Notes under the pieces: generated by a model | What the model was told of the DNA's origin: nothing | Database searches by the model: none | Seen by the model: the letters and a program-made list of their open reading frames with translations, nothing else | Program-made: the position numbers and the translations under genes | Virus record (IMG/VR): IMGVR_UViG_2541047807_000001 | Location: 1 to 39,816 of that record | Direction: 5' to 3' (one strand) | DNA from: a virus | Lineage: Duplodnaviria > Heunggongvirae > Uroviricota > Caudoviricetes | Length of the DNA: 39,816 nucleotides | In this document: piece by piece, positions 1,095 to 38,584 of the stretch | Position numbering within the stretch: the stretch's first letter is position 1 | How the letters are laid out: every line of letters starts with the position of its first letter

Positions 1095-1157
1095 TCACCC
1101 ATAAGGTAACAAAAATCAAGGATAGTTACCTATGAGGTGCATTTACCTGTTGGGTAA
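1095..1157. promoter_or_regulatory. OR-like operator cluster (three TTACC-N5-GGTAA-type sites) between the Cro-like and repressor genes
   Basis: TCACCcataaGGTAA (1095-1109), TTACCtatgaGGTGC (1126-1140), TTACCtgttgGGTAA (1143-1157) in the divergent intergenic region. Confidence 0.6.
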
Positions 1158-1212: not shown

Positions 1213-1797
1213 ATGAAAAGTATCCAGGACGTCCGCAGGCAAAATCTCAACGACTTGATCGACCGTGAATTCAATGGTGTTCAGACGCGGATGGCAGAAA
1301 AACTTGGAACTCAGGCAAATCTGGTAAACCGCTGGGCTCTTGGCAAGAAGGTTATCGGCGACCAGGTTGCGCGAAAAATTGAAGCTGCCGCCAATAAACC
1401 CCGTAACTGGCTTGATATTGATCGTTCGCTTTCTCAGGAGGGTTTTCAGCCTGTCGGCCCGAGCGATATAGGTCAGCTGGCGGCTCACAACCTGGAACGC
1501 TGGATGAGCGAAAGCCGCGACCTTTCAACACAGGGAAAACTTCACCGCGCATCCGGCGTCGCCCAGGTGACAATCAGCCGTCTGTTAAACAATGAGGTCA
1601 GCGTTTCCATTTCCACCCTGGAGAATGTTGCATCCGCATTCGGGCGTCACGGATATGAATTACTGATTCACCCGCACGACCCCGCGACTATCAACTATGA
1701 CCGCTCGCGCTACGCATTGTTACCTGAAACAGAGAAGGCAAAGATCGAAAGTTACATTGAATTTGTCATCAACCAGAACGAAAAAAGCAAACAATAA
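1213..1797 (+). CDS. CI-like immunity repressor with tandem HTH domains and no S24 peptidase domain
   Basis: N-terminal XRE-type HTH (QTRMAEKLGTQANLVNRW) and a second HTH (ASGVAQVTISRLLNNEVSVSISTLENVASAFG). No Ser/Lys autocleavage domain recognisable. Divergent from the Cro-like gene. Confidence 0.65.
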   Translation: MKSIQDVRRQNLNDLIDREFNGVQTRMAEKLGTQANLVNRWALGKKVIGDQVARKIEAAANKPRNWLDIDRSLSQEGFQPVGPSDIGQLAAHNLERWMSESRDLSTQGKLHRASGVAQVTISRLLNNEVSVSISTLENVASAFGRHGYELLIHPHDPATINYDRSRYALLPETEKAKIESYIEFVINQNEKSKQ

Positions 1798-1854: not shown

Positions 1855-1930
1855 TTACCTTATGGGTAATTTTTTTAACTCATATCTATTGACATCAAAC
1901 CAGATACGCATAATTATTACCTCAACGGTA
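1855..1930. promoter_or_regulatory. OL-like operator pair upstream of the plus-strand early operon
   Basis: TTACCttatgGGTAA (1855-1869) and TTACCtcaacGGTAA (1916-1930), followed by RBS gaggtg and the first early ORF. Confidence 0.55.
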
Positions 1931-1949
1931 ACAGACCGAGGTGACAAGT

Positions 1950-3426: not shown

Positions 3427-4304
3427 GCAATGATATCGCAATCACATCACAACCAGGCGCAACTGTAGGTACTGCTGCGGCAATCTTCAGCCCGGAGGGC
3501 ATGAATCAACTGGTGCGTTTCGCGGAGTTGATGTCACAAAGCAAAGCGACTGTACCGAAACATCTTGAAGGCAAACCTGCCGATTGTCTGGCGGTGACCA
3601 TGCAGGCGGCACAGTGGGGAATGAACCCTTTCGCCGTGGCGCAGAAAACGCATATGGTAAACGGAACGTTAGGCTACGAAGCACAGTTGGTAAACGCGGT
3701 CGTATCCTCTTCCAGCCTGCTAGCGACACGCCTGAATTATCGCTGGAGCGGTGACTGGTCGAATGTTAACGGCAAAACAGATAAATCACCGAATCTGACG
3801 GTAACTGTGTCAGCAGTTCTTAAAGGAGAAGCAGAACCCCGTGAGCTTACCATCAGTATGGCGCAAGCCGGAGTGCGTAACTCTCCATTGTGGGAACAGG
3901 ATCCGCGCCAGCAGCTTGCCTATCTTTGCACGAAACGATGGGCTCGCCTGCACGCTCCTGATGTACTTCTCGGTGTTTACACCCCTGACGAATTACAGGA
4001 AACGGCACCGCGCGTTGAGCGAGACATTACTCCGCAAACGACTACTGCTGCGGGAATGAACAGTCTGATCAACGCTAAACCAGTGAAAAAGCCTGATGAG
4101 CAAACGCGTAAAGCGGATAGCCGTGATCCAGAAGAAATGCTGATGGCCTTTACCAGCGCAGCGATGAATTACAGCACTGTCTCCGAACTGGATAAGGCTT
4201 ACAAATACATTGCACAAAAACTTTCAGATGATGACGAACTGCTGGCAAAAGCCACCGACGTTTACAGCGTTCGTCGGGAAGAATTAAACGAAACATCTAT
4301 GTAA
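3423..4304 (+). CDS. RecT-family single-strand annealing protein
   Basis: Conserved RecT-like core (PADCLAVTMQAAQWGMNPF ... NGTLGYEAQLVNAVV); paired with the upstream exonuclease. Confidence 0.7.
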   Translation: MSNDIAITSQPGATVGTAAAIFSPEGMNQLVRFAELMSQSKATVPKHLEGKPADCLAVTMQAAQWGMNPFAVAQKTHMVNGTLGYEAQLVNAVVSSSSLLATRLNYRWSGDWSNVNGKTDKSPNLTVTVSAVLKGEAEPRELTISMAQAGVRNSPLWEQDPRQQLAYLCTKRWARLHAPDVLLGVYTPDELQETAPRVERDITPQTTTAAGMNSLINAKPVKKPDEQTRKADSRDPEEMLMAFTSAAMNYSTVSELDKAYKYIAQKLSDDDELLAKATDVYSVRREELNETSM

Positions 4305-4353
4305 CCACCACCGCGGCGCCACGCGCGCCGCACTGCAACCAAGAGAGGTATTT

Positions 4354-4602
4354 ATGAAAGGTGCATTAGGTAAGAAGGAACTCCTGGCGGTGGTGCCACT
4401 GTCATGGAGCACTATCGACCGTATGGAGCGCGCAGGGGAATTTCCTAAACGCTGGTATATCACTGACAAACGCTGCGCATGGAACCGTGACGAAGTTGAG
4501 CGTTGGCTTGATGAACGTCAGGCAGCAAGCCCGGCAGAGTTCCAGGGTAAAAAGCCTCCTGTTCAGCAACGTGTATATCGTCCTGTGAGCAACGCTGCAT
4601 GA
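4354..4602 (+). CDS. AlpA-family excisionase / transcriptional regulator
   Basis: ELLAVVPLSWSTIDRMERAGEFPKRWYITDKRCAWNRDEVERWL matches the AlpA/Xis HTH pattern. Confidence 0.65.
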   Translation: MKGALGKKELLAVVPLSWSTIDRMERAGEFPKRWYITDKRCAWNRDEVERWLDERQAASPAEFQGKKPPVQQRVYRPVSNAA

Positions 4603-7130: not shown

Positions 7131-7160
7131 GGTATGAGAGTATACCTTTAAGGTAATACC
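7131..7160. promoter_or_regulatory. Operator-like palindrome cluster upstream of the integrase
   Basis: GGTATgagagtATACCtttaaGGTAATACC: overlapping inverted repeats containing a TACC-N5-GGTAA site (7143-7156). Confidence 0.45.
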
Positions 7161-7243: not shown

Positions 7244-7416
7244 TTGAGTTGGCATCTGAATAGGAATGATTTGCTATGAGTTAGCTGTTAATCATTCCCA
7301 CTCAATTATTTACGACATGCATAACCAATTGACTGATAACAACTTTCTGCAACCTGATTTTCACCGTACCGTTTTATATACCGTCACCGGAAATCAGTAC
7401 CATGAAAAATGCCATG

Positions 7417-9754: not shown

Positions 9755-12070
9755 TCATAAAATAGATTTCGTCTTTGTAACAATAATATCTACAAAATCA
9801 CCTGTAGATATAGCTGATGGTACTGTATCTGCAAGAGTAATCTTTTCTGAAGAGATGTTTTGCACATCTAATAATTTATTTTCAACCCCATCCGTATATA
9901 CCAATTTGACATCACTGAATGGAGGGTAATAAGTGACTGTTCCTTGGTATACATATATTTCACTGCCTGAAATTGATTTCACTACATACCTGCCCCTTAC
10001 AAGATTAATTTTGAGTTCAGATAAATCGGTTTTATAACAGGTAATTCCTGAACCAATGTTAGCCATACTAATATCAGTATCACTATAATAAGTAATTGCT
10101 TTTCCTTGTTTTAAGGTGAAGTTATCTTTGCTTTTCCTTGGCAAGGATGTGCTATTTTTGTAATATCTACCAGTTAAGCATAGCCATGAAAATGCAGTAT
10201 TCGCTACATTACCACCAGAATACACAGCTAAACGAATTGCACTAACTGGAACCCCTTCATTATTAATCCTGATCTTAATGGAAGAAATGTTAGCAACAGT
10301 AGCATATCTATGGTTAGATGAATCCCATTGCATAGAAGAAGTTATTGCTTCTGTTTGTGAAGTTATGACATTCCCATCTCCATCTAATGCATACAGGTAA
10401 ATGCGAAACGATGCCGTATCTGCTGAGAATGTAAACATATCACCATTTCTTACTGGTACATCTCCAGATTCCCATAACAACCCAAAATTCCGCATAAAAG
10501 CAAACTTAGAAGAAACTAGGTGACGGATATTATATAAACCATCTACATCTGTTTGATATGCTAATACACCAACTTCTCCATTGTTGGCACTGGATATAAA
10601 TGGGGTGTTAGCATTTAAAGAAAACAATGTTACTTCATCGGATATATTTTCCTGAACATGAAATACTGCATTCCCCTTGCCATTATCAGTTACCTCTACA
10701 TAAGTGTAAGGTGATGGATTGTATGGTTCATTTGTATAGTAAGGAGAACTTAACCATGAAGCCTCAATTGAGTTATTCCACGTATATTCACCAAAGTTAA
10801 TTATCAACTGTTGGTTAGTTGGGGATGATGGATATCGTTCAAAACGAAACCCGTAGAAGTAATTGTTATCACCTCTTTGAATATCAATTTTACCTGCCCC
10901 CTCCATAGTTCCACCATAAAACTTATTGTGGTTATGATGATATGGATTATCAGCGAAAATGATATTATTCGTACGATTCAGATAAAAATAGTTTTCATTT
11001 ATCCATCCGTTCTCAACTCCAAGAAAATGAATTGTATCGACCTTTTTCAGGTTAAAGGTTGAGTATGCTATTGAATAATCCGTCGATGCCACCGAAGCAT
11101 TATAATTTGCATATAACTGTAAGTAGTCGCAACGCTCAATGTTAATATGCTGCCCTTTTGCCCCGATAATACGAATATCCGGTGTCGTTTCAGATGAAAT
11201 ACCAGAATTTCTGATAATCGTTCCGAAGTTTTGTCTTGGGTTGTTAGGGTTTGATGCATTCCCGCCAAGCAATACCCCTATTCCTGAGTGGGATATGGTA
11301 AAAACAGCATTGGTCATTTCGAGGCTGACATTACGAAGATTTAATGTCTCCGTAATAATAAAATTACCTTCCGCTCGTAATGTTCTGGATGATTCTCGTG
11401 CATATTCTGCAGCCAGGATCAATGCAGATGTATCATCTGTTATACCATCGCCTTTTGCCCCAAAATCGCGAACACTAACGGTGTCTCTCATCTTATCCTG
11501 GAACGTTCGGTATACTGCTCCAGAACCATACTGAATAAACCAACCAAAACCACCAACAACCCCGGCGATTGCAGCATCGACATAATTACGCATTGAGCGA
11601 TTATTTACAGCGTCCTGCTCAAGTGATGGATCTGCAAGGTTAGAAATTTTGTTTTGCTTTGCATCGTAATATTTTGCAAGCAAAGATGGTTTCATCAATG
11701 CACGTCTGAACCACCCAAAACATTGCTGGATCAGCATCGTCAGGTAGTCAAAAGCATCTTCATGCACTTCGGGGAAAAATTTTCCCTGATTGCGAAGATC
11801 TGTCTCCTGCACTACATCAAGCACACGATCTATCGTAATTCGCCAGCCAGCAGCAAGCGGAGACGGCAGAACCACTGAACCGCCACTATAAGTGCCCGCC
11901 CCAGTTACCGTATAACCGGTATCCAGAACCAATTCTGTTACGTTCCCGTTCAGGTCAGACACCTGAACAACCAGGTCTGATTTTCTGAAAATTCGAAAAG
12001 TATACGGAAACGATGTCGTAACGCCGTTACCTGTGTATTCGTTGTGGTCAACTTCGGTTGAGACCGTCAT
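9755..12070 (-). CDS. Tailspike / receptor-binding protein with T7 gp17-like N-terminal adaptor and pectate-lyase-like beta-helix
   Basis: N-terminus MTVSTEVDHNEYTGNGVTTSFPYTFRIF is tail-fiber-adaptor-like; VRDFGAKGDGITDDT is a beta-helix depolymerase signature. The gene is visibly AT-rich versus its neighbours. Confidence 0.8.
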   Translation of the reverse strand: MTVSTEVDHNEYTGNGVTTSFPYTFRIFRKSDLVVQVSDLNGNVTELVLDTGYTVTGAGTYSGGSVVLPSPLAAGWRITIDRVLDVVQETDLRNQGKFFPEVHEDAFDYLTMLIQQCFGWFRRALMKPSLLAKYYDAKQNKISNLADPSLEQDAVNNRSMRNYVDAAIAGVVGGFGWFIQYGSGAVYRTFQDKMRDTVSVRDFGAKGDGITDDTSALILAAEYARESSRTLRAEGNFIITETLNLRNVSLEMTNAVFTISHSGIGVLLGGNASNPNNPRQNFGTIIRNSGISSETTPDIRIIGAKGQHINIERCDYLQLYANYNASVASTDYSIAYSTFNLKKVDTIHFLGVENGWINENYFYLNRTNNIIFADNPYHHNHNKFYGGTMEGAGKIDIQRGDNNYFYGFRFERYPSSPTNQQLIINFGEYTWNNSIEASWLSSPYYTNEPYNPSPYTYVEVTDNGKGNAVFHVQENISDEVTLFSLNANTPFISSANNGEVGVLAYQTDVDGLYNIRHLVSSKFAFMRNFGLLWESGDVPVRNGDMFTFSADTASFRIYLYALDGDGNVITSQTEAITSSMQWDSSNHRYATVANISSIKIRINNEGVPVSAIRLAVYSGGNVANTAFSWLCLTGRYYKNSTSLPRKSKDNFTLKQGKAITYYSDTDISMANIGSGITCYKTDLSELKINLVRGRYVVKSISGSEIYVYQGTVTYYPPFSDVKLVYTDGVENKLLDVQNISSEKITLADTVPSAISTGDFVDIIVTKTKSIL

Positions 12071-12175
12071 GTTAAATCTCCAGATAGTCGCAGCACCCGT
12101 TGCGCCGCATATCTGGTTATTCTATTACCCATAAAACCATATATGGATAGAAAGACTGTGAATATGAATAGATAT

Positions 12176-12190
12176 TACCTTTCAGGTAAT
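12176..12190. promoter_or_regulatory. Repressor operator-type site TTACCtttcaGGTAA
   Basis: Perfect TTACC-N5-GGTAA palindrome upstream of the antirepressor-like gene. Confidence 0.5.
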
Positions 12191-12228
12191 TTGCAAAACG
12201 TGCTGGATAGCAAACAAATTATTTGCTA

Positions 12229-12244
12229 CTGTATAAATATACAG
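12229..12244. promoter_or_regulatory. LexA (SOS) box
   Basis: CTGTATAAATATACAG matches the CTGT-N8-ACAG LexA consensus, about 20 nt upstream of the ORF start. Confidence 0.65.
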
Positions 12245-12266
12245 TTATTGCATGGAGAAGATTAAG

Positions 12267-12524
12267 ATGCAGCAGTATCACTATCCACTGGAAGACGGAT
12301 TTACCGAAAGGATTCACACGCCGGGAGGCGTCAGGTCACTGGTGGAGGGATCGCACTTGATGAAATTACTCCGGGATCTCGATAAGGATGGATTTAATGT
12401 CGATGGCCCACTTGCCGAACTGACTGCACTGATTAACTACGTCACCAGCTCACAGATGTCTATGCAGGATCTGCAAACACATCTCGACTATTGTGCCGAA
12501 CAATTACGAAAGCAAACCAGATAA
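12267..12524 (+). CDS. Small antirepressor-like protein (stand-alone paralogue of the antirepressor C-terminal domain)
   Basis: HLMKLLRDLDKDGFNVDGPLAELTALINYVTSSQMSMQDLQTH parallels LLMNLLNQLQEDGHDVSGAAAELTTMFCYIVGVSKCLRDIQTH in the downstream antirepressor. Preceded by the LexA box. Confidence 0.5.
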   Translation: MQQYHYPLEDGFTERIHTPGGVRSLVEGSHLMKLLRDLDKDGFNVDGPLAELTALINYVTSSQMSMQDLQTHLDYCAEQLRKQTR

Positions 12525-12555
12525 GGTTTGCAATTACCAAGTGGAGTGCTTATAT

Positions 12556-12570
12556 TTACCTTTGCGGTAA
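12556..12570. promoter_or_regulatory. Repressor operator-type site TTACCtttgcGGTAA
   Basis: Perfect TTACC-N5-GGTAA between the two antirepressor-like genes. Confidence 0.45.
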
Positions 12571-12663
12571 ATTTACATCGCACTCCTCTTGTGCCATAGT
12601 AATCAGGCACTGGCAAAATCCAGTGCCGGGATTGGCGTCCCGGGTTACTACAGAGGCACATAT

Positions 12664-12687
12664 GCCGCATAAGCGGTTTTTTTATGT
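12664..12687 (+). terminator. Rho-independent terminator
   Basis: ccgc-ataa-gcgg hairpin followed by a run of seven T. Confidence 0.5.
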
Positions 12688-12837
12688 GTAAAGCGCACCT
12701 ATTCTATGGTGGGCTGTGTGGGGGCACCGAAAGGTGCGCCGGGTCCTTTGTAGCCGGTTACGCCAACCCTGCACAGTTCACCACCAACCGATTGGCGTCG
12801 GTAGTGGTGATTAACCTAACTACAAAGGTGATCACTA

Positions 12838-13523
12838 TGACTGCTAACGTAACCCCATCTGTTTTTCATTTTGAATCAGAAGCAACCATTCGAGCCATTG
12901 TTATTGATGGAAATCCTTGGTTTGTTGCCAAAGACGTTATTAAAGCTCTTCAACTGACAAACCCCACTATGTCAATAAAATCTCTTGATGATGATGAAAG
13001 GGCTAAATTTAACTTAGGCCGTCAAGGCGAAACCAATATTATCAACGAGTCAGGCCTCTACACACTGATCCTCCGCTGCCGCGACGCAGTGACACCAGGC
13101 ACTATCCCCTACCGCTTTCGTAAATGGGTTACAGGTGAGGTTCTTCCTCAGATCCGCCGCACCGGAAGTTACATTAAAAACTCGCTCCCGCAGGAAGAAC
13201 GCATAAAGATGGTTGCCGACCAGGTAGCCAACGCCATAGCATCAGCAGTGATGCAGGCAATGAAGATAGAGAACAAAACCTACAGTGCCCCGCTGAAGCC
13301 CGGCTACCGCAGTCTGATTCATTCGCCGTCGGGTGTTCTCGGCCTGACGGAGAACTCACTGCTGATGAATCTGCTGAACCAGTTACAGGAAGACGGGCAT
13401 GACGTATCGGGCGCGGCGGCGGAGTTGACCACCATGTTCTGCTACATCGTCGGTGTGAGCAAATGCCTGCGTGATATCCAGACCCACGCGGAGTACATCA
13501 ACGACAAGGCAGGGTTCTTCTGA
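12838..13523 (+). CDS. Antirepressor (Bro-N / AntA-type N-terminal domain)
   Basis: FHFESEATIRAIVIDGNPWFVAKDVIKALQLTNP is a Bro-N/Ant signature. RBS aaggtga before ATG 12838; the longer ORF-track start at 12684 lies in the terminator T-run. Confidence 0.7.
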
Positions 13524-13594: not shown

Positions 13595-13609
13595 TTACCT
13601 CAAGGGTAA
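13595..13609. promoter_or_regulatory. Repressor operator-type site TTACCtcaagGGTAA
   Basis: Perfect TTACC-N5-GGTAA upstream of the toxin-like module. Confidence 0.45.
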
Positions 13610-13669: not shown

Positions 13670-13849
13670 ATGCGAAACGAAAAATTGCAGATGCGTAGAG
13701 CGCAAGCTGCCGCAAGACGTTCTTTCAATGGAAGCGTAGAGTACGTAAAAGTTACTATGACAAAAGATCACGCAAGTCGCGTATCCCGCGCTTTCTTTGA
13801 TTCTCGTAACAATAAGGAAAATTATGAGTTCGTCTGCGTCGCAGAATGA
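13670..13849 (+). CDS. Small basic protein overlapping the start of the toxin-like gene (candidate partner or antitoxin)
   Basis: 59-codon ORF with RBS gagg 8 nt upstream; overlaps the next gene by 26 nt. Confidence 0.35.
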   Translation: MRNEKLQMRRAQAAARRSFNGSVEYVKVTMTKDHASRVSRAFFDSRNNKENYEFVCVAE

Positions 13850-14369
13850 TAAAAATCAAATTGTCAGATATAAGGGTCGAGTGTTGCATACGCAAAATTT
13901 CTCGGCCCTTTGTGCATCTGATCTTGAGCTGAAGAAAGTATCTGATGCCTTTACCCAGTATTGGAAAACGGGATACCATCCATCTCTTGGTAAAGATGCT
14001 GCATTTGCTCGTCCGACAGAAATGCTTAAACTAAATGTCAGGCATACTCATGTCGATAACCAAGACTATATTCCAGAAGATAGTGATAAAAAACACACTG
14101 GTAAAAAATCATCTTGGGATGCATGGAAAAATATAGCGTCTGTACAAGTAAAATGCATACCAACAAGTGATTGCTTTTTAGTTTATTCGGTAAATCACAA
14201 TCGTGATGCGCTGGTTATGTTTTTTGTTGACGCAGATGCTCACAACATAACTGAGCAAGAAGAGTTTAAAGAGGAAGCAATCACTATCAGTTATCAATTC
14301 TTTGAGAAAACAAAAACAGAACCAATGCCTTTAGAAGAAGATCTTTTTTCTGATAAATGGAAGGAATAG
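13824..14369 (+). CDS. YafO-like toxin family protein (candidate ribosome-dependent mRNA interferase)
   Basis: Three blocks in YafO order: YWKTGYHPSLGKDAAF, LNVRHTHV, CFLVYSVNHNRDALVMFFVDADAH, matching my recollection of E. coli YafO (...FGRDALY.., ..ERVAHIHL.., ..AHLVYCQGAFDEQAWLLIAILKPEPH). RBS aaggaaaa before ATG 13824. Confidence 0.5.
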   Translation: MSSSASQNDKNQIVRYKGRVLHTQNFSALCASDLELKKVSDAFTQYWKTGYHPSLGKDAAFARPTEMLKLNVRHTHVDNQDYIPEDSDKKHTGKKSSWDAWKNIASVQVKCIPTSDCFLVYSVNHNRDALVMFFVDADAHNITEQEEFKEEAITISYQFFEKTKTEPMPLEEDLFSDKWKE

Positions 14370-30983: not shown

Positions 30984-31020
30984 TTGACATTTAACGCACG
31001 AATTATTACCTTTCAGGTAA
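30984..31020 (+). promoter_or_regulatory. Promoter-like element with overlapping repressor operator
   Basis: TTGACA (30984-30989), 17-nt spacer, weak -10 TACCTT overlapping TTACCtttcaGGTAA (31006-31020). Reads toward the leader, tRNA and moron gene. Confidence 0.4.
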
Positions 31021-31342: not shown

Positions 31343-31419
31343 GTGGCATTAGCTCAGTTGGACAGAGCAACCGCCTTCTAAGCGGTTGGTTGCAGGTTCG
31401 AATCCTGCATGCCACGCCA
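31343..31419 (+). tRNA. tRNA-Arg (anticodon TCT)
   Basis: Hand-folded cloverleaf: acceptor GTGGCAT/ATGCCAC, D-stem GCTC/GAGC, anticodon stem ACCGC/GCGGT with loop CTTCTAA, T-stem GCAGG/CCTGC with loop TTCGAAT, 3' GCCA. 77 nt. Confidence 0.85.
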
Positions 31420-33603: not shown

Positions 33604-34196
33604 TGATTGCCATCCTGACGTTCTTTCAGTCTCTTCCTGGCTGCCGCTATGCGATCAGCAATTGTCACATTCACATTAACATCCAGGCGTTCTTTGAATG
33701 CATTGACATCGACGTGCTTACCAATCAGCTCAAGGTTCTTCACCTTGTCAGGCCATTTAATTTTTTTGAGGATTGTCTCTATCGAATCCTCGTTCATGTT
33801 CATGATGGTCGATGACAGATCAAAGCCGCTAAGCGTAGTGCGCCAGATTTTCGGCCACTCGCGGATTGGCTTAAGGCTCCCATCGTCGTTGAGGATGTCG
33901 ATCACGTCCATCTGGTCGATCTCCACCAGGCGCATGAGAACGTAATCAGCACTGACGCGCATTCGTTTGTTGCGCTCCTCCATCAACTCGGCAATCCGTT
34001 TTTGAATGCGTTCATCGCGCATCATGACACTGGCTTTAACTGCCGCTGTATTTGGGGAGAATCCTGCATTAATCGCTGCCTGAGTCTGGTTTTCAGGCGT
34101 TTTGATGTATGACTGGCAATAAGCCTCCTGCATTGCTGTTAGTGGCTTAAATTGCGTTGATTTGCGTTTATAGGTTTTAGGTTCAGCAGGCATCAT
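33600..34196 (-). CDS. Terminase small subunit
   Basis: MPAEPKTYKRKSTQFKPLTAMQEAYCQSYIKTPENQTQAAINAGFSPNTAAVKAS is a small-terminase N-terminal pattern. Start ATG at 34196 or 34193; the longer ORF-track start includes 5' UTR repeats. Confidence 0.65.
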   Translation of the reverse strand: MMPAEPKTYKRKSTQFKPLTAMQEAYCQSYIKTPENQTQAAINAGFSPNTAAVKASVMMRDERIQKRIAELMEERNKRMRVSADYVLMRLVEIDQMDVIDILNDDGSLKPIREWPKIWRTTLSGFDLSSTIMNMNEDSIETILKKIKWPDKVKNLELIGKHVDVNAFKERLDVNVNVTIADRIAAARKRLKERQDGNQ

Positions 34197-34313
34197 AACC
34201 ACCGTGGTAATAGTTACCGTTGTGGTAATAGTACCATGCAAAATAAAGCCGCCATAGTTGGCGGCAGTATTCAAAACCATCAAATTCATCATGCATAATC
34301 TACTCGTGACATG

Positions 34314-38122: not shown

Positions 38123-38467
38123 TCAGAACTCTTCGATTTTCCAGCCACCACCTGCTTTCTTTGGCTTAACAGTTACCCCGATGATTCGGAACGGATATTG
38201 ATCTGCGGCGACTTTGGTTTTCACCCTGGCGTCGTCGGTCCAGAAACCTTTCACTTCGTGCAGTTCCATCTCTCCGGTGGCGAGCATCACAGCGAAATCT
38301 GGCGTATAGAACGTGTTATCAGCTAACCGCAGCTTGATACCCTCGAATCGATACCAGGCGATTTCCCCTGCACGTTTACGCAGCTCAAGGTGCTGGCAAT
38401 ACGCAGATTCTGTTTTGTTCATCTGGCCTGTTTTGAGTCGACCAAGAGCCTGTATCTGTTTTCTCAT
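38123..38467 (-). CDS. Small PD-(D/E)XK-like protein (DUF1064-like)
   Basis: YTPDFAVMLATGEMELHEVKG fits PD-x(n)-E-x-K; 114 aa. Confidence 0.4.
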   Translation of the reverse strand: MRKQIQALGRLKTGQMNKTESAYCQHLELRKRAGEIAWYRFEGIKLRLADNTFYTPDFAVMLATGEMELHEVKGFWTDDARVKTKVAADQYPFRIIGVTVKPKKAGGGWKIEEF

Positions 38468-38470
38468 GAT

Positions 38471-38537
38471 TTACCCCTGAGGTAATTAAAAACCACATAA
38501 GACACGAAATCAATAGAGTTTAGAATATTTTATTACC
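38471..38537. promoter_or_regulatory. Operator pair between the P-like gene and the next early gene
   Basis: TTACCcctgaGGTAA (38471-38485) and TTACCcagcaGGTAA (38523-38537). Confidence 0.45.
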
Positions 38538-38584
38538 CAGCAGGTAATTATCAAGACGTAAAAAAATGCGCTATCGCGCTGGTA

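What the first reader, a model, noticed from the sequence alone, without database searches (positions are those of the whole stretch)
12176..13523. SOS-linked antirepressor module: LexA box plus two antirepressor-like genes, paired with a repressor lacking an autocleavage domain
The CI-like repressor (1213..1797) has two HTH domains and no recognisable S24 peptidase domain, so RecA-stimulated self-cleavage is unlikely. A near-consensus LexA box (12229-12244) precedes a small protein that is a stand-alone paralogue of the C-terminal domain of the downstream Bro-N antirepressor. Both genes are also flanked by repressor operators. This suggests induction by LexA-derepressed antirepression, with an unusual split of the antirepressor into a full-length and a C-domain-only copy.
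Basis: partly seen in the sequence, partly recalled or inferred. Interest (0 to 1): 0.65.

Follow-up and report, generated by a model that had tools for sequence, protein, structure and literature searches.

The report
LexA-gated and RNA-gated twin antirepressors

Summary
A perfect CTGT-N8-ACAG LexA box (12229-12244) precedes an 85-aa gene (12267-12524). That protein is 42% identical to the C-terminal 80 residues of the downstream Bro-N protein, whose true start is 12837. The repressor (1213-1797) has HTH domains only and no S24 peptidase. TTACC-N5-GGTAA operators flank both genes.

The core is already known. The small protein is 88% identical to Ant of Salmonella phage SPC32H (PDB 5D50). The repressor is the SPC32H Rep homologue (43% identity). 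The literature describes LexA-derepressed antirepression for that phage.

It consists of a Rep-operator-flanked promoter, an isrK RNA (12607-12683, ending in its own terminator) and a C4 antisense RNA (12702-12788). The C4 loops pair with the Shine-Dalgarno region of the Bro-N gene. Across eight related loci, C4 and both of its targets change together.

So the second antirepressor is a separately gated cassette of the P1 immI / Gifsy-1 isrK-anrP type, not half of a split gene. Overexpressing its near-identical homologue in phage ZX5 promotes lysis.

The whole module occurs in 285 of 5,426 complete E. coli genomes. Verdict: a new member of known kinds, of modest interest.

The parts
1213..1797 (+). 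rep: master repressor, homologue of SPC32H Rep. It has HTH domains and a C-terminal tetramerisation/Ant-binding region, and no S24 peptidase.
   Evidence: PDB 5d50_A E=3.5e-42. 43% identity to SPC32H Rep. Pfam finds HTH matches only.
1095..1157 (.). Operators in the rep / cro-like divergent intergenic region: 1095-1109 (1 mismatch), 1126-1140 (2 mismatches) and 1143-1157 (perfect).
   Evidence: SPC32H has three such sites at the syntenic place.
1855..1931 (.). Two perfect operators (1855-1869 and 1917-1931) downstream of rep and ahead of the rightward early genes.
12175..12189 (.). Rep-type operator TTACCTTTCAGGTAA upstream of the ant promoter.
   Evidence: Present in all 11 loci examined, with variable spacers and, in the phiV10-type loci, a one-base variant right half-site GGTGA.
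12204..12232 (+). Probable ant promoter, TGGATA-N17-TACTGT. This is inferred. The -10 hexamer overlaps the left half of the LexA box.
   Evidence: Read from the sequence. GCTGGATAG and TACTGT are invariant in the four-phage alignment. The consensus scan did not report it, because it matches only 8 of 12 positions.
12229..12244 (.). LexA (SOS) box CTGTATAAATATACAG.
12267..12524 (+). ant: 85-aa antirepressor, orthologue of SPC32H Ant.
   Evidence: PDB 5d50_E E=4.4e-47. 88% identity to SPC32H Ant. phrog_450.
12556..12570 (.). Rep-type operator TTACCTTTGCGGTAA, ending one base before the -35 hexamer of the isrK promoter.
   Evidence: The half-sites are invariant and the spacer varies across 8 loci.
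12572..12600 (+). isrK/C4/Bro-N promoter: TTTACA-N17-CATAGT with a TG extension. The predicted start is about 12607.
   Evidence: TTGTGCCATAGT is invariant in 8 loci.
12607..12683 (+). isrK RNA. It carries the C4 target copies a1 (12632-12638) and b1 (12648-12656) and ends in an intrinsic terminator (stem 12664-12677 plus a T-run).
   Evidence: Rfam RF01394, 74.7 bits against a gathering score of 50. RF03163 c4-a1b1 also matches at 42.6 bits, below its gathering score of 46.7. Terminator. Pairing.
12702..12788 (+). C4 antisense RNA, with loop sequences b' (12745-12753, CCUUUGUAG) and a' (12760-12766, ACGCCAA).
   Evidence: Rfam RF01695, 79.5 bits against a gathering score of 45. Pairing.
12792..12828 (+). 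Downstream C4 targets: a2 (12792-12798, UUGGCGU) and b2 (12820-12828, CUACAAAGG). b2 covers the Shine-Dalgarno sequence of the Bro-N gene.
   Evidence: Covariation in 8 loci: 93.6% of cells paired, 6 pairs changed on both sides, 0 of 500 shuffles reach the score.
12837..13523 (+). Second antirepressor, 228 aa: a Bro-N domain (residues 18-104) fused to an Ant-like domain (residues about 143-228, nt about 13263-13520).
   Evidence: 82% identical overall to vB_EcoP_ZX5 ORF4, and identical but for one residue from residue 71 to the end. Overexpressing ZX5 ORF4 lowers lysogeny (PMC9782041).
13595..13609 (.). Rep-type operator TTACCTCAAGGGTAA downstream of the module and ahead of the YafO-like gene pair.

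Best explanation
This is the anti-immunity region of a Uetakevirus (phiV10/epsilon15-like phage). It holds two antirepressor genes in tandem. They share one Rep-binding fold but are gated by different signals.

Gate 1 (shown for the SPC32H counterparts, inferred here): in a lysogen LexA sits on the SOS box inside the ant core promoter. DNA damage makes LexA cleave itself. The 85-aa Ant is then made, and as a tetramer it grips the C-terminal domains of Rep, splits the Rep tetramer into dimers and takes it off its TTACC-N5-GGTAA operators. Rep has no peptidase domain, so this is its route to SOS induction.

Gate 2 (RNA parts and base-pairing shown here by covariance models and covariation; function inferred from P1 and Gifsy-1): a second promoter, abutted by a Rep operator, transcribes isrK. 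Most transcripts stop at the isrK terminator. Read-through gives C4 RNA and then the Bro-N::Ant-like mRNA. The C4 loops a' and b' pair with a2 and b2, masking the Shine-Dalgarno sequence, so the second antirepressor is not translated while C4 is in excess. isrK carries decoy copies (a1, b1) of the same targets.

Link between the gates (inferred): once Ant has removed Rep, this promoter opens, IsrK titrates C4, and the Bro-N::Ant-like protein adds a second wave of antirepressor that locks in the lytic decision. The same cassette would also act on infection, as P1 and P22 immI do. A superinfecting relative with a different C4 specificity would escape the resident C4.

The stated confidence is for the overall picture. 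By part, I put gate 1 at about 0.9, the C4/isrK translational gate at about 0.85, and the feed-forward link between the two at about 0.4.
For: - Ant and Rep homology to the crystallised SPC32H pair.
- SOS box and operator conserved with SPC32H and six other loci.
- Published mechanism: PMC7380047, PMC9638917, PMC9986798.
- No S24 domain in Rep.
- isrK and C4 score above their Rfam gathering scores. They are present in all eight dual loci analysed in detail and in ZX5.
- b' pairs with the Shine-Dalgarno region of the Bro-N gene.
- Three-way compensatory change across eight loci: four a-types and three b-types, each matched in a1, a', a2 or in b1, b', b2.
- Pairing statistics: C4 with a2/b2 is 93.6% paired; a1/b1 with C4 is 99.2% paired. 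No shuffle of 500 reaches either covariation score, and sliding the partner drops pairing to 22-53%.
- The promoter and terminator fit the 5' and 3' ends of isrK. The operator half-sites next to that promoter are invariant in 8 loci while the spacer varies.
- The Ant-like C-domain spans the whole Ant fold.
- ZX5 ORF4, identical to this protein but for one residue from residue 71 to the end, when overexpressed cut prophage titre from 1e9 to 1e6 and rep mRNA by 75% (PMC9782041).
- In Gifsy-1, IsrK supplied in trans switches on translation of the downstream antirepressor AnrP, and AnrP induces the prophage (PMC4825925).
Against: - Nothing was measured in this phage.
- Rep is only 43% identical to SPC32H Rep while Ant is 88% identical, so Ant-Rep binding here is an extrapolation.
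- The operator at 12175 lies 14 bp upstream of the inferred -35. It is therefore unclear whether Rep represses ant at all.
- The residues shared by Ant and the Bro-N C-domain could serve tetramerisation rather than Rep binding. The AlphaFold model of that domain is unreliable (pLDDT about 40).
- phiV10 carries a frameshift inside the Ant-like domain, and SPC32H and epsilon15 lack the cassette, so the second antirepressor is dispensable.
- The ZX5 result comes from overexpression of a GST fusion only.
- The feed-forward link between the two gates is pure inference.
Confidence: 0.72

Rival explanations
1. One reading: one LexA-controlled operon encodes a split antirepressor, and both proteins are made together on SOS induction.
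For: The two genes are on the same strand and 312 bp apart. No terminator lies between the ant stop codon and isrK, so some ant transcripts must enter the cassette. Their paralogy is real.
Against: - An intrinsic terminator (12664-12683) and a separate, conserved promoter with its own operator lie between the genes.
- C4 masks the Shine-Dalgarno sequence of the second gene.
- SPC32H and epsilon15 carry the small gene alone.
- The two domains are old paralogues at 35-40% identity, not pieces of one gene.
Confidence: 0.1
2. The Bro-N protein does not act on the resident Rep. Its Ant-like domain is only an oligomerisation module for a tetrameric Bro-N DNA-binding protein, or it targets repressors of other prophages (cross-talk) or a host factor.
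For: - SPC32H Ant is a tetramer (PMC9638917), so conserved residues may reflect assembly.
- Bro-N domains are thought to bind DNA (PMC9782041).
- The N-terminal Bro-N part is mosaic between close relatives while the C-terminal part stays the same.
- phiV10 tolerates a frameshift in the domain.
- In Gifsy-1 the measured outcome of AnrP was a rise in antQ expression.
Against: - In every locus examined the fusion sits immediately downstream of the small ant in a Uetakevirus-type context.
- In the phage collection, extra Ant-like matches occur only in records that also have the small Ant.
- ZX5 ORF4 overexpression cut lysogeny 1000-fold and lowered rep mRNA.
- The promoter carries a Rep operator, which fits membership of the Rep circuit.
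Confidence: 0.2
3. The isrK and C4 matches are remnants or chance structures, and the Bro-N gene is expressed constitutively or only under Rep control.
For: None beyond the absence of direct RNA data for this phage.
Against: - Both RNAs score 25-35 bits above their gathering scores.
- They are conserved in eight loci from five genera, with three-way compensatory changes.
- The fold is more stable than shuffled sequence, z = -5.2.
- The homologous RNAs have been detected and shown to function in Gifsy-1 (PMC4825925).
Confidence: 0.03
4. Rep is inactivated by RecA-stimulated self-cleavage as in lambda, and the antirepressors are accessory.
For: None found.
Against: - No S24 peptidase match at E<=0.1.
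- Rep is homologous along its full length to SPC32H Rep, whose C-terminal part is a tetramerisation/Ant-binding domain.
- The literature describes antirepression, not cleavage, for this family.
Confidence: 0.02

Closest known systems
Salmonella phage SPC32H Rep-Ant-LexA antirepression system (Kim & Ryu 2013, J Virol 87:11775; Kim et al. 2016, PNAS 113:E2480; PDB 5D4Z and 5D50)
   Same: - Same genus and the same position next to the tailspike gene.
- Ant is 88% identical and Rep 43% identical over the full length.
- The SOS box and the upstream TTACC-N5-GGTAA operator are conserved.
- The same operator motif is scattered at syntenic sites across both genomes.
   Different: SPC32H has only the small ant. 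It has no isrK, no C4 and no Bro-N fusion. Rep has diverged much more than Ant.
Phage P1/P7 immI region (c4 antisense RNA, icd, ant; C1 operator Op51). Details of P1 are from my own knowledge of Citron & Schuster 1990 and the Heinrich/Schuster papers.
   Same: - A C4-family RNA whose a' and b' loops pair with one upstream (a1, b1) and one downstream (a2, b2) target set.
- b2 lies over a ribosome-binding site ahead of an antirepressor gene.
- The master repressor's operator sits at the promoter.
- The a/b sequences differ between relatives, as between P1 and P7.
   Different: - There is no icd-like coupled ORF; b2 masks the antirepressor's own Shine-Dalgarno sequence.
- The antirepressor is a Bro-N::Ant-like fusion, not P1 Ant1/2.
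- The cassette sits behind a LexA-controlled paralogue.
Gifsy-1 isrK-orf45(STnc1160)-anrP locus (Hershko-Shalev et al. 2016, PMC4825925)
   Same: - An isrK RNA with its own promoter and a leaky terminator.
- A stable processed RNA downstream of isrK that shares complementarity with it.
- An antirepressor-like gene that is transcribed but translationally silent.
- IsrK in trans activates it, and AnrP induces the prophage.
- From my own knowledge (Lemire et al. 2011), Gifsy-1 also has a separate LexA-controlled antirepressor, so it is a precedent for dual control.
   Different: - No conserved 45-codon ORF here: the conserved ATG in C4 opens only 14-35 codons.
- In this phage the two antirepressors are adjacent and share a homologous domain.
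- Similarity of this protein to AnrP was not tested.
Escherichia phage vB_EcoP_ZX5 ORF4 anti-repressor (Li et al. 2022, PMC9782041)
   Same: 82% identical overall, and identical but for one residue from residue 71 to the end. The same isrK/C4 cassette lies upstream. Overexpression promoted the lytic cycle.
   Different: In the passages read, that paper's account of the lysogeny-related genes covers only ORF4, ORF12 and ORF21 and does not bring in the small Ant homologue (annotated 'hypothetical protein' in the record). 'LexA' does not occur in its text. The record annotates the C4 region as an 'ash family protein' CDS.
Coliphage 186 Tum and Gifsy/Fels-2 LexA-controlled antirepressors
   Same: The logic is the same: a repressor that does not cleave itself, and a small antirepressor under a LexA box (PMC7380047).
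   Different: I found no sequence relationship. Ant belongs to a narrow family of its own: 136 clusters at 90% identity, no Pfam or NCBIfam model, and PHROG 450 labelled 'unknown function'.

Membership tests
SPC32H-type Rep/Ant antirepression system | Small Ant protein homologous over the whole crystallised chain | tested here: met
   5d50_E E=4.4e-47, query residues 7-89 of the 90-aa ORF (translated from the upstream ATG at 12252) aligned to chain residues 3-85. 88% identity to SPC32H Ant.
SPC32H-type Rep/Ant antirepression system | Rep with an N-terminal HTH DNA-binding domain plus a C-terminal tetramerisation/Ant-binding domain | tested here: met
   5d50_A E=3.5e-42 over residues 1-190; 5d4z_A (Rep C-terminal domain) E=3.6e-20 over residues 89-190. 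43% identity to SPC32H Rep.
SPC32H-type Rep/Ant antirepression system | LexA box in the ant promoter | tested here: met
   Perfect CTGT-N8-ACAG at 12229-12244, aligned with the SPC32H box.
SPC32H-type Rep/Ant antirepression system | LexA binds the box; Ant binds Rep and releases it from DNA | not testable with these tools
   Needs EMSA or footprinting and protein-binding assays. Known only for SPC32H, through secondary sources.
C4 antisense RNA (Rfam RF01695) / P1 immI-type control | Covariance-model score above the gathering threshold | tested here: met
   79.5 bits against 45, full-length match 1-87.
C4 antisense RNA (Rfam RF01695) / P1 immI-type control | Loops a' and b' complementary to an upstream (a1, b1) and a downstream (a2, b2) target set, with b2 over a ribosome-binding site | tested here: met
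   Exact 7- and 9-nt complementarities. Compensatory changes in 8 loci; 0 of 500 shuffles reach the score.
C4 antisense RNA (Rfam RF01695) / P1 immI-type control | Upstream coupled ORF (icd in P1, orf45 in Gifsy-1) through which the antirepressor is translated | tested here: not met
   The conserved ATG inside C4 opens only 14-35 codons, with variable length and frame. b2 lies directly on the Shine-Dalgarno sequence of the Bro-N gene.
C4 antisense RNA (Rfam RF01695) / P1 immI-type control | Master-repressor operator at the cassette promoter (the analogue of Op51) | tested here: met
   TTACC-N5-GGTAA at 12556-12570, abutting the -35 hexamer. The half-sites are invariant in 8 loci. Occupancy by Rep is inferred.
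isrK RNA (Rfam RF01394) | Covariance-model score above the gathering threshold, with its own promoter and an intrinsic terminator | tested here: met
   74.7 bits against 50. Promoter-like site ending at 12600 and terminator stem at 12664-12677.
Bro-N domain proteins (Pfam PF02498) | Pfam score above the gathering cut-off | tested here: met
   72.7 bits against 25.6, residues 18-104. That domain is confident in the AlphaFold model, pLDDT about 76-88 over residues 11-100.
Lambda CI / LexA-type self-cleaving repressors | C-terminal S24 peptidase domain | tested here: not met
   No S24 match at E<=0.1 in Pfam. The C-terminal region is homologous to the SPC32H Rep tetramerisation domain instead.

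The most novel reading that the evidence does not exclude
The two antirepressors form a two-stage latch on one repressor. SOS-released Ant strips Rep. That opens the Rep-controlled isrK promoter, IsrK titrates C4, and a second protein carrying the same Rep-binding fold is made. Separately, the diversified C4 specificities (at least four a-types and three b-types among close relatives) would define a second, RNA-based immunity layer in Uetakeviruses. Because Ant is far more conserved than Rep, relatives that are heteroimmune at rep or at C4 could induce each other's prophages.
Probability: 0.3. Interest if true: 0.5.

Novelty: new member of a known kind. Interest (0 to 1): 0.3.

Why it matters
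There are three practical consequences.
- About 5% of complete E. coli genomes carry this module, yet the small gene is annotated 'hypothetical protein'. The C4 RNA is sometimes miscalled as a CDS: an 'ash family protein' in ZX5, or a 279-aa over-extended Bro-N ORF. Homology to PDB 5D50 lets both proteins be named.
- The finding gives a concrete structural hypothesis for a widespread class of Bro-N 'anti-repressors': the variable C-terminal domain is the repressor-binding module, here an Ant fold.
- It offers a compact natural system in which protein-level (LexA), repressor-level (Rep operator) and RNA-level (IsrK/C4) controls converge on one repressor.

None of this overturns current understanding.

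Tried and rejected
- Operator spacing: the motif with a 6-base spacer (TTACC-N6-GGTAA) gave only chance-level hits. The correct spacer is 5 bases.
- Primary papers: the two SPC32H papers (PMC3807360, PMC4983836, and by DOI) are not held. The published mechanism is therefore cited from secondary sources and from the PDB molecule names.
- Structure prediction: the AlphaFold2 model of the Bro-N fusion was confident for the Bro-N domain only. The Ant-like domain came out at pLDDT about 40, so I ran no fold search and relied on sequence and profile homology instead.
- orf45/icd-like ORF: I looked for a coupled ORF inside C4 and found none conserved. My first impression that such an ORF ran in frame into the Bro-N gene came from a one-base indexing slip.
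- Third Ant-like copy: TL-2011b and HEMP4 have three matches, but the window has none.
- Other LexA boxes: the other two CTGT-N8-ACAG matches (26993, 31535) lack the AT-rich centre and are within chance expectation.
- Curated families: NCBIfam and Pfam have no model for the small Ant.
Full report
**What the window is.** The window is a complete Uetakevirus (phiV10/epsilon15-like podophage) genome in its non-integrated arrangement.
- 81% of its first 25 kb aligns at 97% identity with Escherichia phage EC.W1-9, and 54% aligns at about 96% with phiV10.
- The 17-bp attP core published for phiV10 and ZX5 occurs once, in the interior, at 7290-7306 next to int.
- The finding lies between the leftward tailspike gene (9755-12070) and the leftward virion genes (from 15563).

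**Checking the observation.**
- *LexA box.* CTGTATAAATATACAG lies at 12229-12244. The loose pattern CTGT-N8-ACAG is not rare (3 hits against 0.48 expected). The stricter CTGTAT-N4-ATACAG is unique, against 0.05 expected. The box keeps its position in SPC32H, phiV10, TL-2011b, Tyrion, and Salmonella and E. coli prophages.
- *Small gene.* It is 12267-12524, 85 aa.
Residues 18-104 are a Bro-N domain.
- *Paralogy.* Residues 143-220 of the Bro-N protein are 42% identical to the small protein, E=7e-17.
- *Repressor.* The 1213-1797 product matches only HTH families and no S24 peptidase.
- *Operators.* TTACC-N5-GGTAA occurs 15 times with up to 1 mismatch, against 0.77 expected. Sites lie at 12175, 12556 and 13595 around the two genes and cluster on both sides of rep.

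**The core is an already characterised system.**
- The small protein hits one PDB sequence, 5d50_E 'Anti-repressor protein', at E=4.4e-47 over the whole chain. It is 88% identical to the annotated ant of Salmonella phage SPC32H.
- The repressor hits 5d50_A and 5d4z_A 'Repressor' and is 43% identical to SPC32H Rep.
- I could not obtain the primary papers. Secondary sources say three things. In this phage, LexA self-cleavage leads to synthesis of Ant, which inactivates the repressor by protein-protein contact (PMC7380047). Rep binds DNA as a tetramer, and tetrameric Ant binds two Rep dimers and breaks the tetramer (PMC9638917). The Rep C-terminal domain both tetramerises and contacts Ant (PMC9986798).
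- The ant upstream region aligns with that of SPC32H, including the operator, a conserved GCTGGATAG block and the SOS box.
- I read TGGATA-N17-TACTGT (12204-12232) as the likely promoter, with LexA over the -10. An alternative reading, TTGCTA-N17-TATTGC, places the box in the spacer. Either way the box lies in the core promoter. This promoter assignment is inference.
- SPC32H carries the same TTACC-N5-GGTAA motif 18 times (0.5 expected): three copies between rep and its divergent neighbour, three downstream of rep, one at ant, and others at syntenic sites. This supports the motif being the Rep operator, although that identification rests on position alone.

The 312 bp between the two genes is not a spacer. 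Rfam finds an isrK RNA (12607-12683, 74.7 bits against 50) and a C4 antisense RNA (12702-12788, 79.5 bits against 45). The isrK region also matches the 'a1, b1 targets of C4' model, just below its gathering score.
- A sigma-70-like promoter (TTTACA-N17-TG-n-CATAGT, 12572-12600) ends seven bases before the isrK 5' end. The operator at 12556-12570 abuts its -35 hexamer.
- isrK ends in the only plus-strand intrinsic terminator of the region.
- The C4 loop sequence CCUUUGUAG (12745-12753) is exactly complementary to CUACAAAGG (12820-12828), which contains the Shine-Dalgarno sequence of the Bro-N gene. With one G-U pair it also matches CUACAGAGG in isrK (12648-12656).
- ACGCCAA (12760-12766) is complementary to UUGGCGU both at 12792-12798 and in isrK at 12632-12638.
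- This is the a1/b1, a'/b', a2/b2 geometry of the P1/P7 immI region. The P1 details are from my own knowledge.

**Covariation test.** I compared eight loci that have the same layout: the window, phiV10, TL-2011b, Enterobacter phage Tyrion, a Klebsiella phage, and Salmonella, K. michiganensis and E. coli prophages.
- The a element occurs as ACGCCAA, AGACCAA, GUGCAAA or GUCUCAA. The b element occurs as CCUUUGUAG, CCUUUUAG or CCACUUAG. In every locus both target copies carry the matching complement.
- Scored formally, C4 with a2/b2 is 93.6% paired, with six pairs changed on both sides. a1/b1 with C4 is 99.2% paired, with seven such pairs.
- No shuffle of 500 reaches either covariation score. Sliding the partner by 1-3 columns drops pairing to 22-53%.
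- The few unpaired cells come mostly from an alignment offset in one locus.
- I conclude that the RNA switch is real and under selection, and that its specificity diversifies between relatives.
- Unlike P1 (icd) and Gifsy-1 (orf45), there is no conserved coupled ORF. The conserved ATG in C4 opens only 14-35 codons. C4 therefore appears to mask the antirepressor's own ribosome-binding site.

**The second antirepressor.**
- A profile of 26 Bro-N homologues hits only 5d50_E in the PDB, over residues 145-223, E=1.7e-19. The C-domain therefore spans the whole Ant fold.
- The small Ants and the fused domains form two separate clades, 35-40% identical to each other and 51-86% within each clade. This is an old duplication and fusion, not a split.
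- The fusion is common in Enterobacteriaceae prophages. In every locus I examined it lies just downstream of a small ant.
- In the phage collection, extra Ant-like matches are seen only in records that also have the small gene. The SPC32H and epsilon15 group has the small gene alone.
- There is direct, if crude, functional evidence. ZX5 ORF4 is 82% identical overall and identical but for one residue from residue 71 to the end, and has the same isrK/C4 upstream. When overexpressed, it reduced prophage titre from 1e9 to 1e6 and rep mRNA by 75% (PMC9782041). In the passages I read, that paper treats only ORF4, ORF12 and ORF21 as lysogeny-related genes and does not bring in the small Ant homologue; 'LexA' does not occur in its text.
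- The closest studied RNA homologue is the Gifsy-1 isrK-orf45(STnc1160)-anrP locus. There the long transcript is translationally silent, IsrK in trans switches on the antirepressor AnrP, and AnrP induces the prophage (PMC4825925).

**Most likely mechanism.**
- *Shown for the SPC32H counterparts:* LexA cleavage leads to Ant synthesis, and Ant disassembles Rep.
- *Shown here computationally:* the RNA parts and their base-pairing.
- *Inferred:* Rep at 12556 represses the isrK promoter. Removal of Rep by Ant raises IsrK, which titrates C4 and allows translation of the Bro-N::Ant-like protein, reinforcing the switch. The cassette also works during infection and superinfection as an immI-type anti-immunity function, with the C4 type setting specificity.

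**Weak points.**
- The operator at 12175 lies upstream of the inferred -35, so its effect on ant is unclear.
- Ant is far more conserved than Rep (88% against 43%).
- The C-domain could serve only for oligomerisation. Its AlphaFold model is unreliable.
- phiV10 has a frameshift in that domain, so the second gene is dispensable.

**Novelty and interest.**
- The module, at 80% coverage or more, is present in 285 of 5,426 complete E. coli genomes. There the small gene is annotated 'hypothetical protein'.
- The small-Ant family is narrow: 136 clusters, all in enteric bacteria apart from one probable contaminant record, with no Pfam or NCBIfam model and a PHROG labelled 'unknown function'.
- All the components belong to described kinds. 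The modestly new points are three: the Bro-N antirepressor carries an Ant fold; the two copies are gated by LexA and by IsrK/C4 respectively; and the C4 specificities have diversified within the genus.
- I rate it a new member of known kinds, interest 0.3.

Noticed in passing
window 1095-1157, 1855-1931, 7142-7156, 12175, 12556, 13595, 31006-31020, 34196-34228, 38471-38547: TTACC-N5-GGTAA sites are scattered over at least eight loci, almost all intergenic: upstream of int, near the tRNA, and ahead of the leftward operon at 38467. SPC32H has the same pattern (18 sites). This resembles the many dispersed C1 operators of phage P1 rather than a lambda-like two-operator switch. The 31006 site is identical in sequence to the ant operator.
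   Followed up: partly
window 13670-14369: Just after the operator at 13595 lie a 59-aa ORF (phrog_6685) and an overlapping 190-aa protein with a YafO-toxin Pfam match just above the cut-off (26.1 bits against 25). This may be a toxin-antitoxin-like pair under Rep control. The same pair follows the Bro-N gene in TL-2011b and in several E. coli and Klebsiella prophages.
   Followed up: partly
window 12684-13523; L014 2150-2263: Gene callers often extend the Bro-N ORF to a 279-aa product starting at ATG 12684; many database entries are 279 aa. This extension runs across the C4 RNA and has no Shine-Dalgarno sequence. In ZX5 the C4 region is annotated as an 'ash family protein' CDS. Both look like annotation artefacts over an RNA gene.
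   Followed up: partly
L001 (phiV10) 3766-4445: The phiV10 Bro-N gene is frameshifted inside the Ant-like domain: 194 aa plus a 29-aa leftover ORF. In that reference phage the second antirepressor is probably inactive.
   Followed up: partly
L008 6733-8926 and L009 6814-8770 (Klebsiella prophage contigs): Some relatives carry a third anti-immunity cassette in the same hotspot: Arc/Mnt-like ribbon-helix-helix genes next to a KilA-N or P22_AR_N antirepressor, as in P22 immI. P22 immI also sits beside the tailspike gene.
   Followed up: no
L005, L007-L009 upstream of the small ant: In the Klebsiella loci the SOS box reads ATGTATATATATACAG, with the left CTGT replaced by ATGT. LexA control may be weaker or lost there. 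The Klebsiella small Ants also share the DGHDVSGAAAEL motif with the fused C-domains.
   Followed up: no
window 1213-1797 versus 12267-12524: Between this phage and SPC32H the antirepressor is much more conserved (88%) than the repressor it is presumed to target (43%). This would fit cross-induction between heteroimmune relatives.
   Followed up: partly
window 31343-31419 and 7290-7306: A tRNA-Arg (anticodon tct) is encoded by the phage. The attP core ATTGAGTGGGAATGATT occurs once beside int, so the window is a free phage genome rather than an integrated prophage.
   Followed up: yes
L005 (Klebsiella phage ST512-KPC3phi13.3) 3346-3603: An 85-aa ORF lies between the small ant and isrK in this Klebsiella phage. 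It is unrelated in sequence to Ant and its function is unknown.
   Followed up: no
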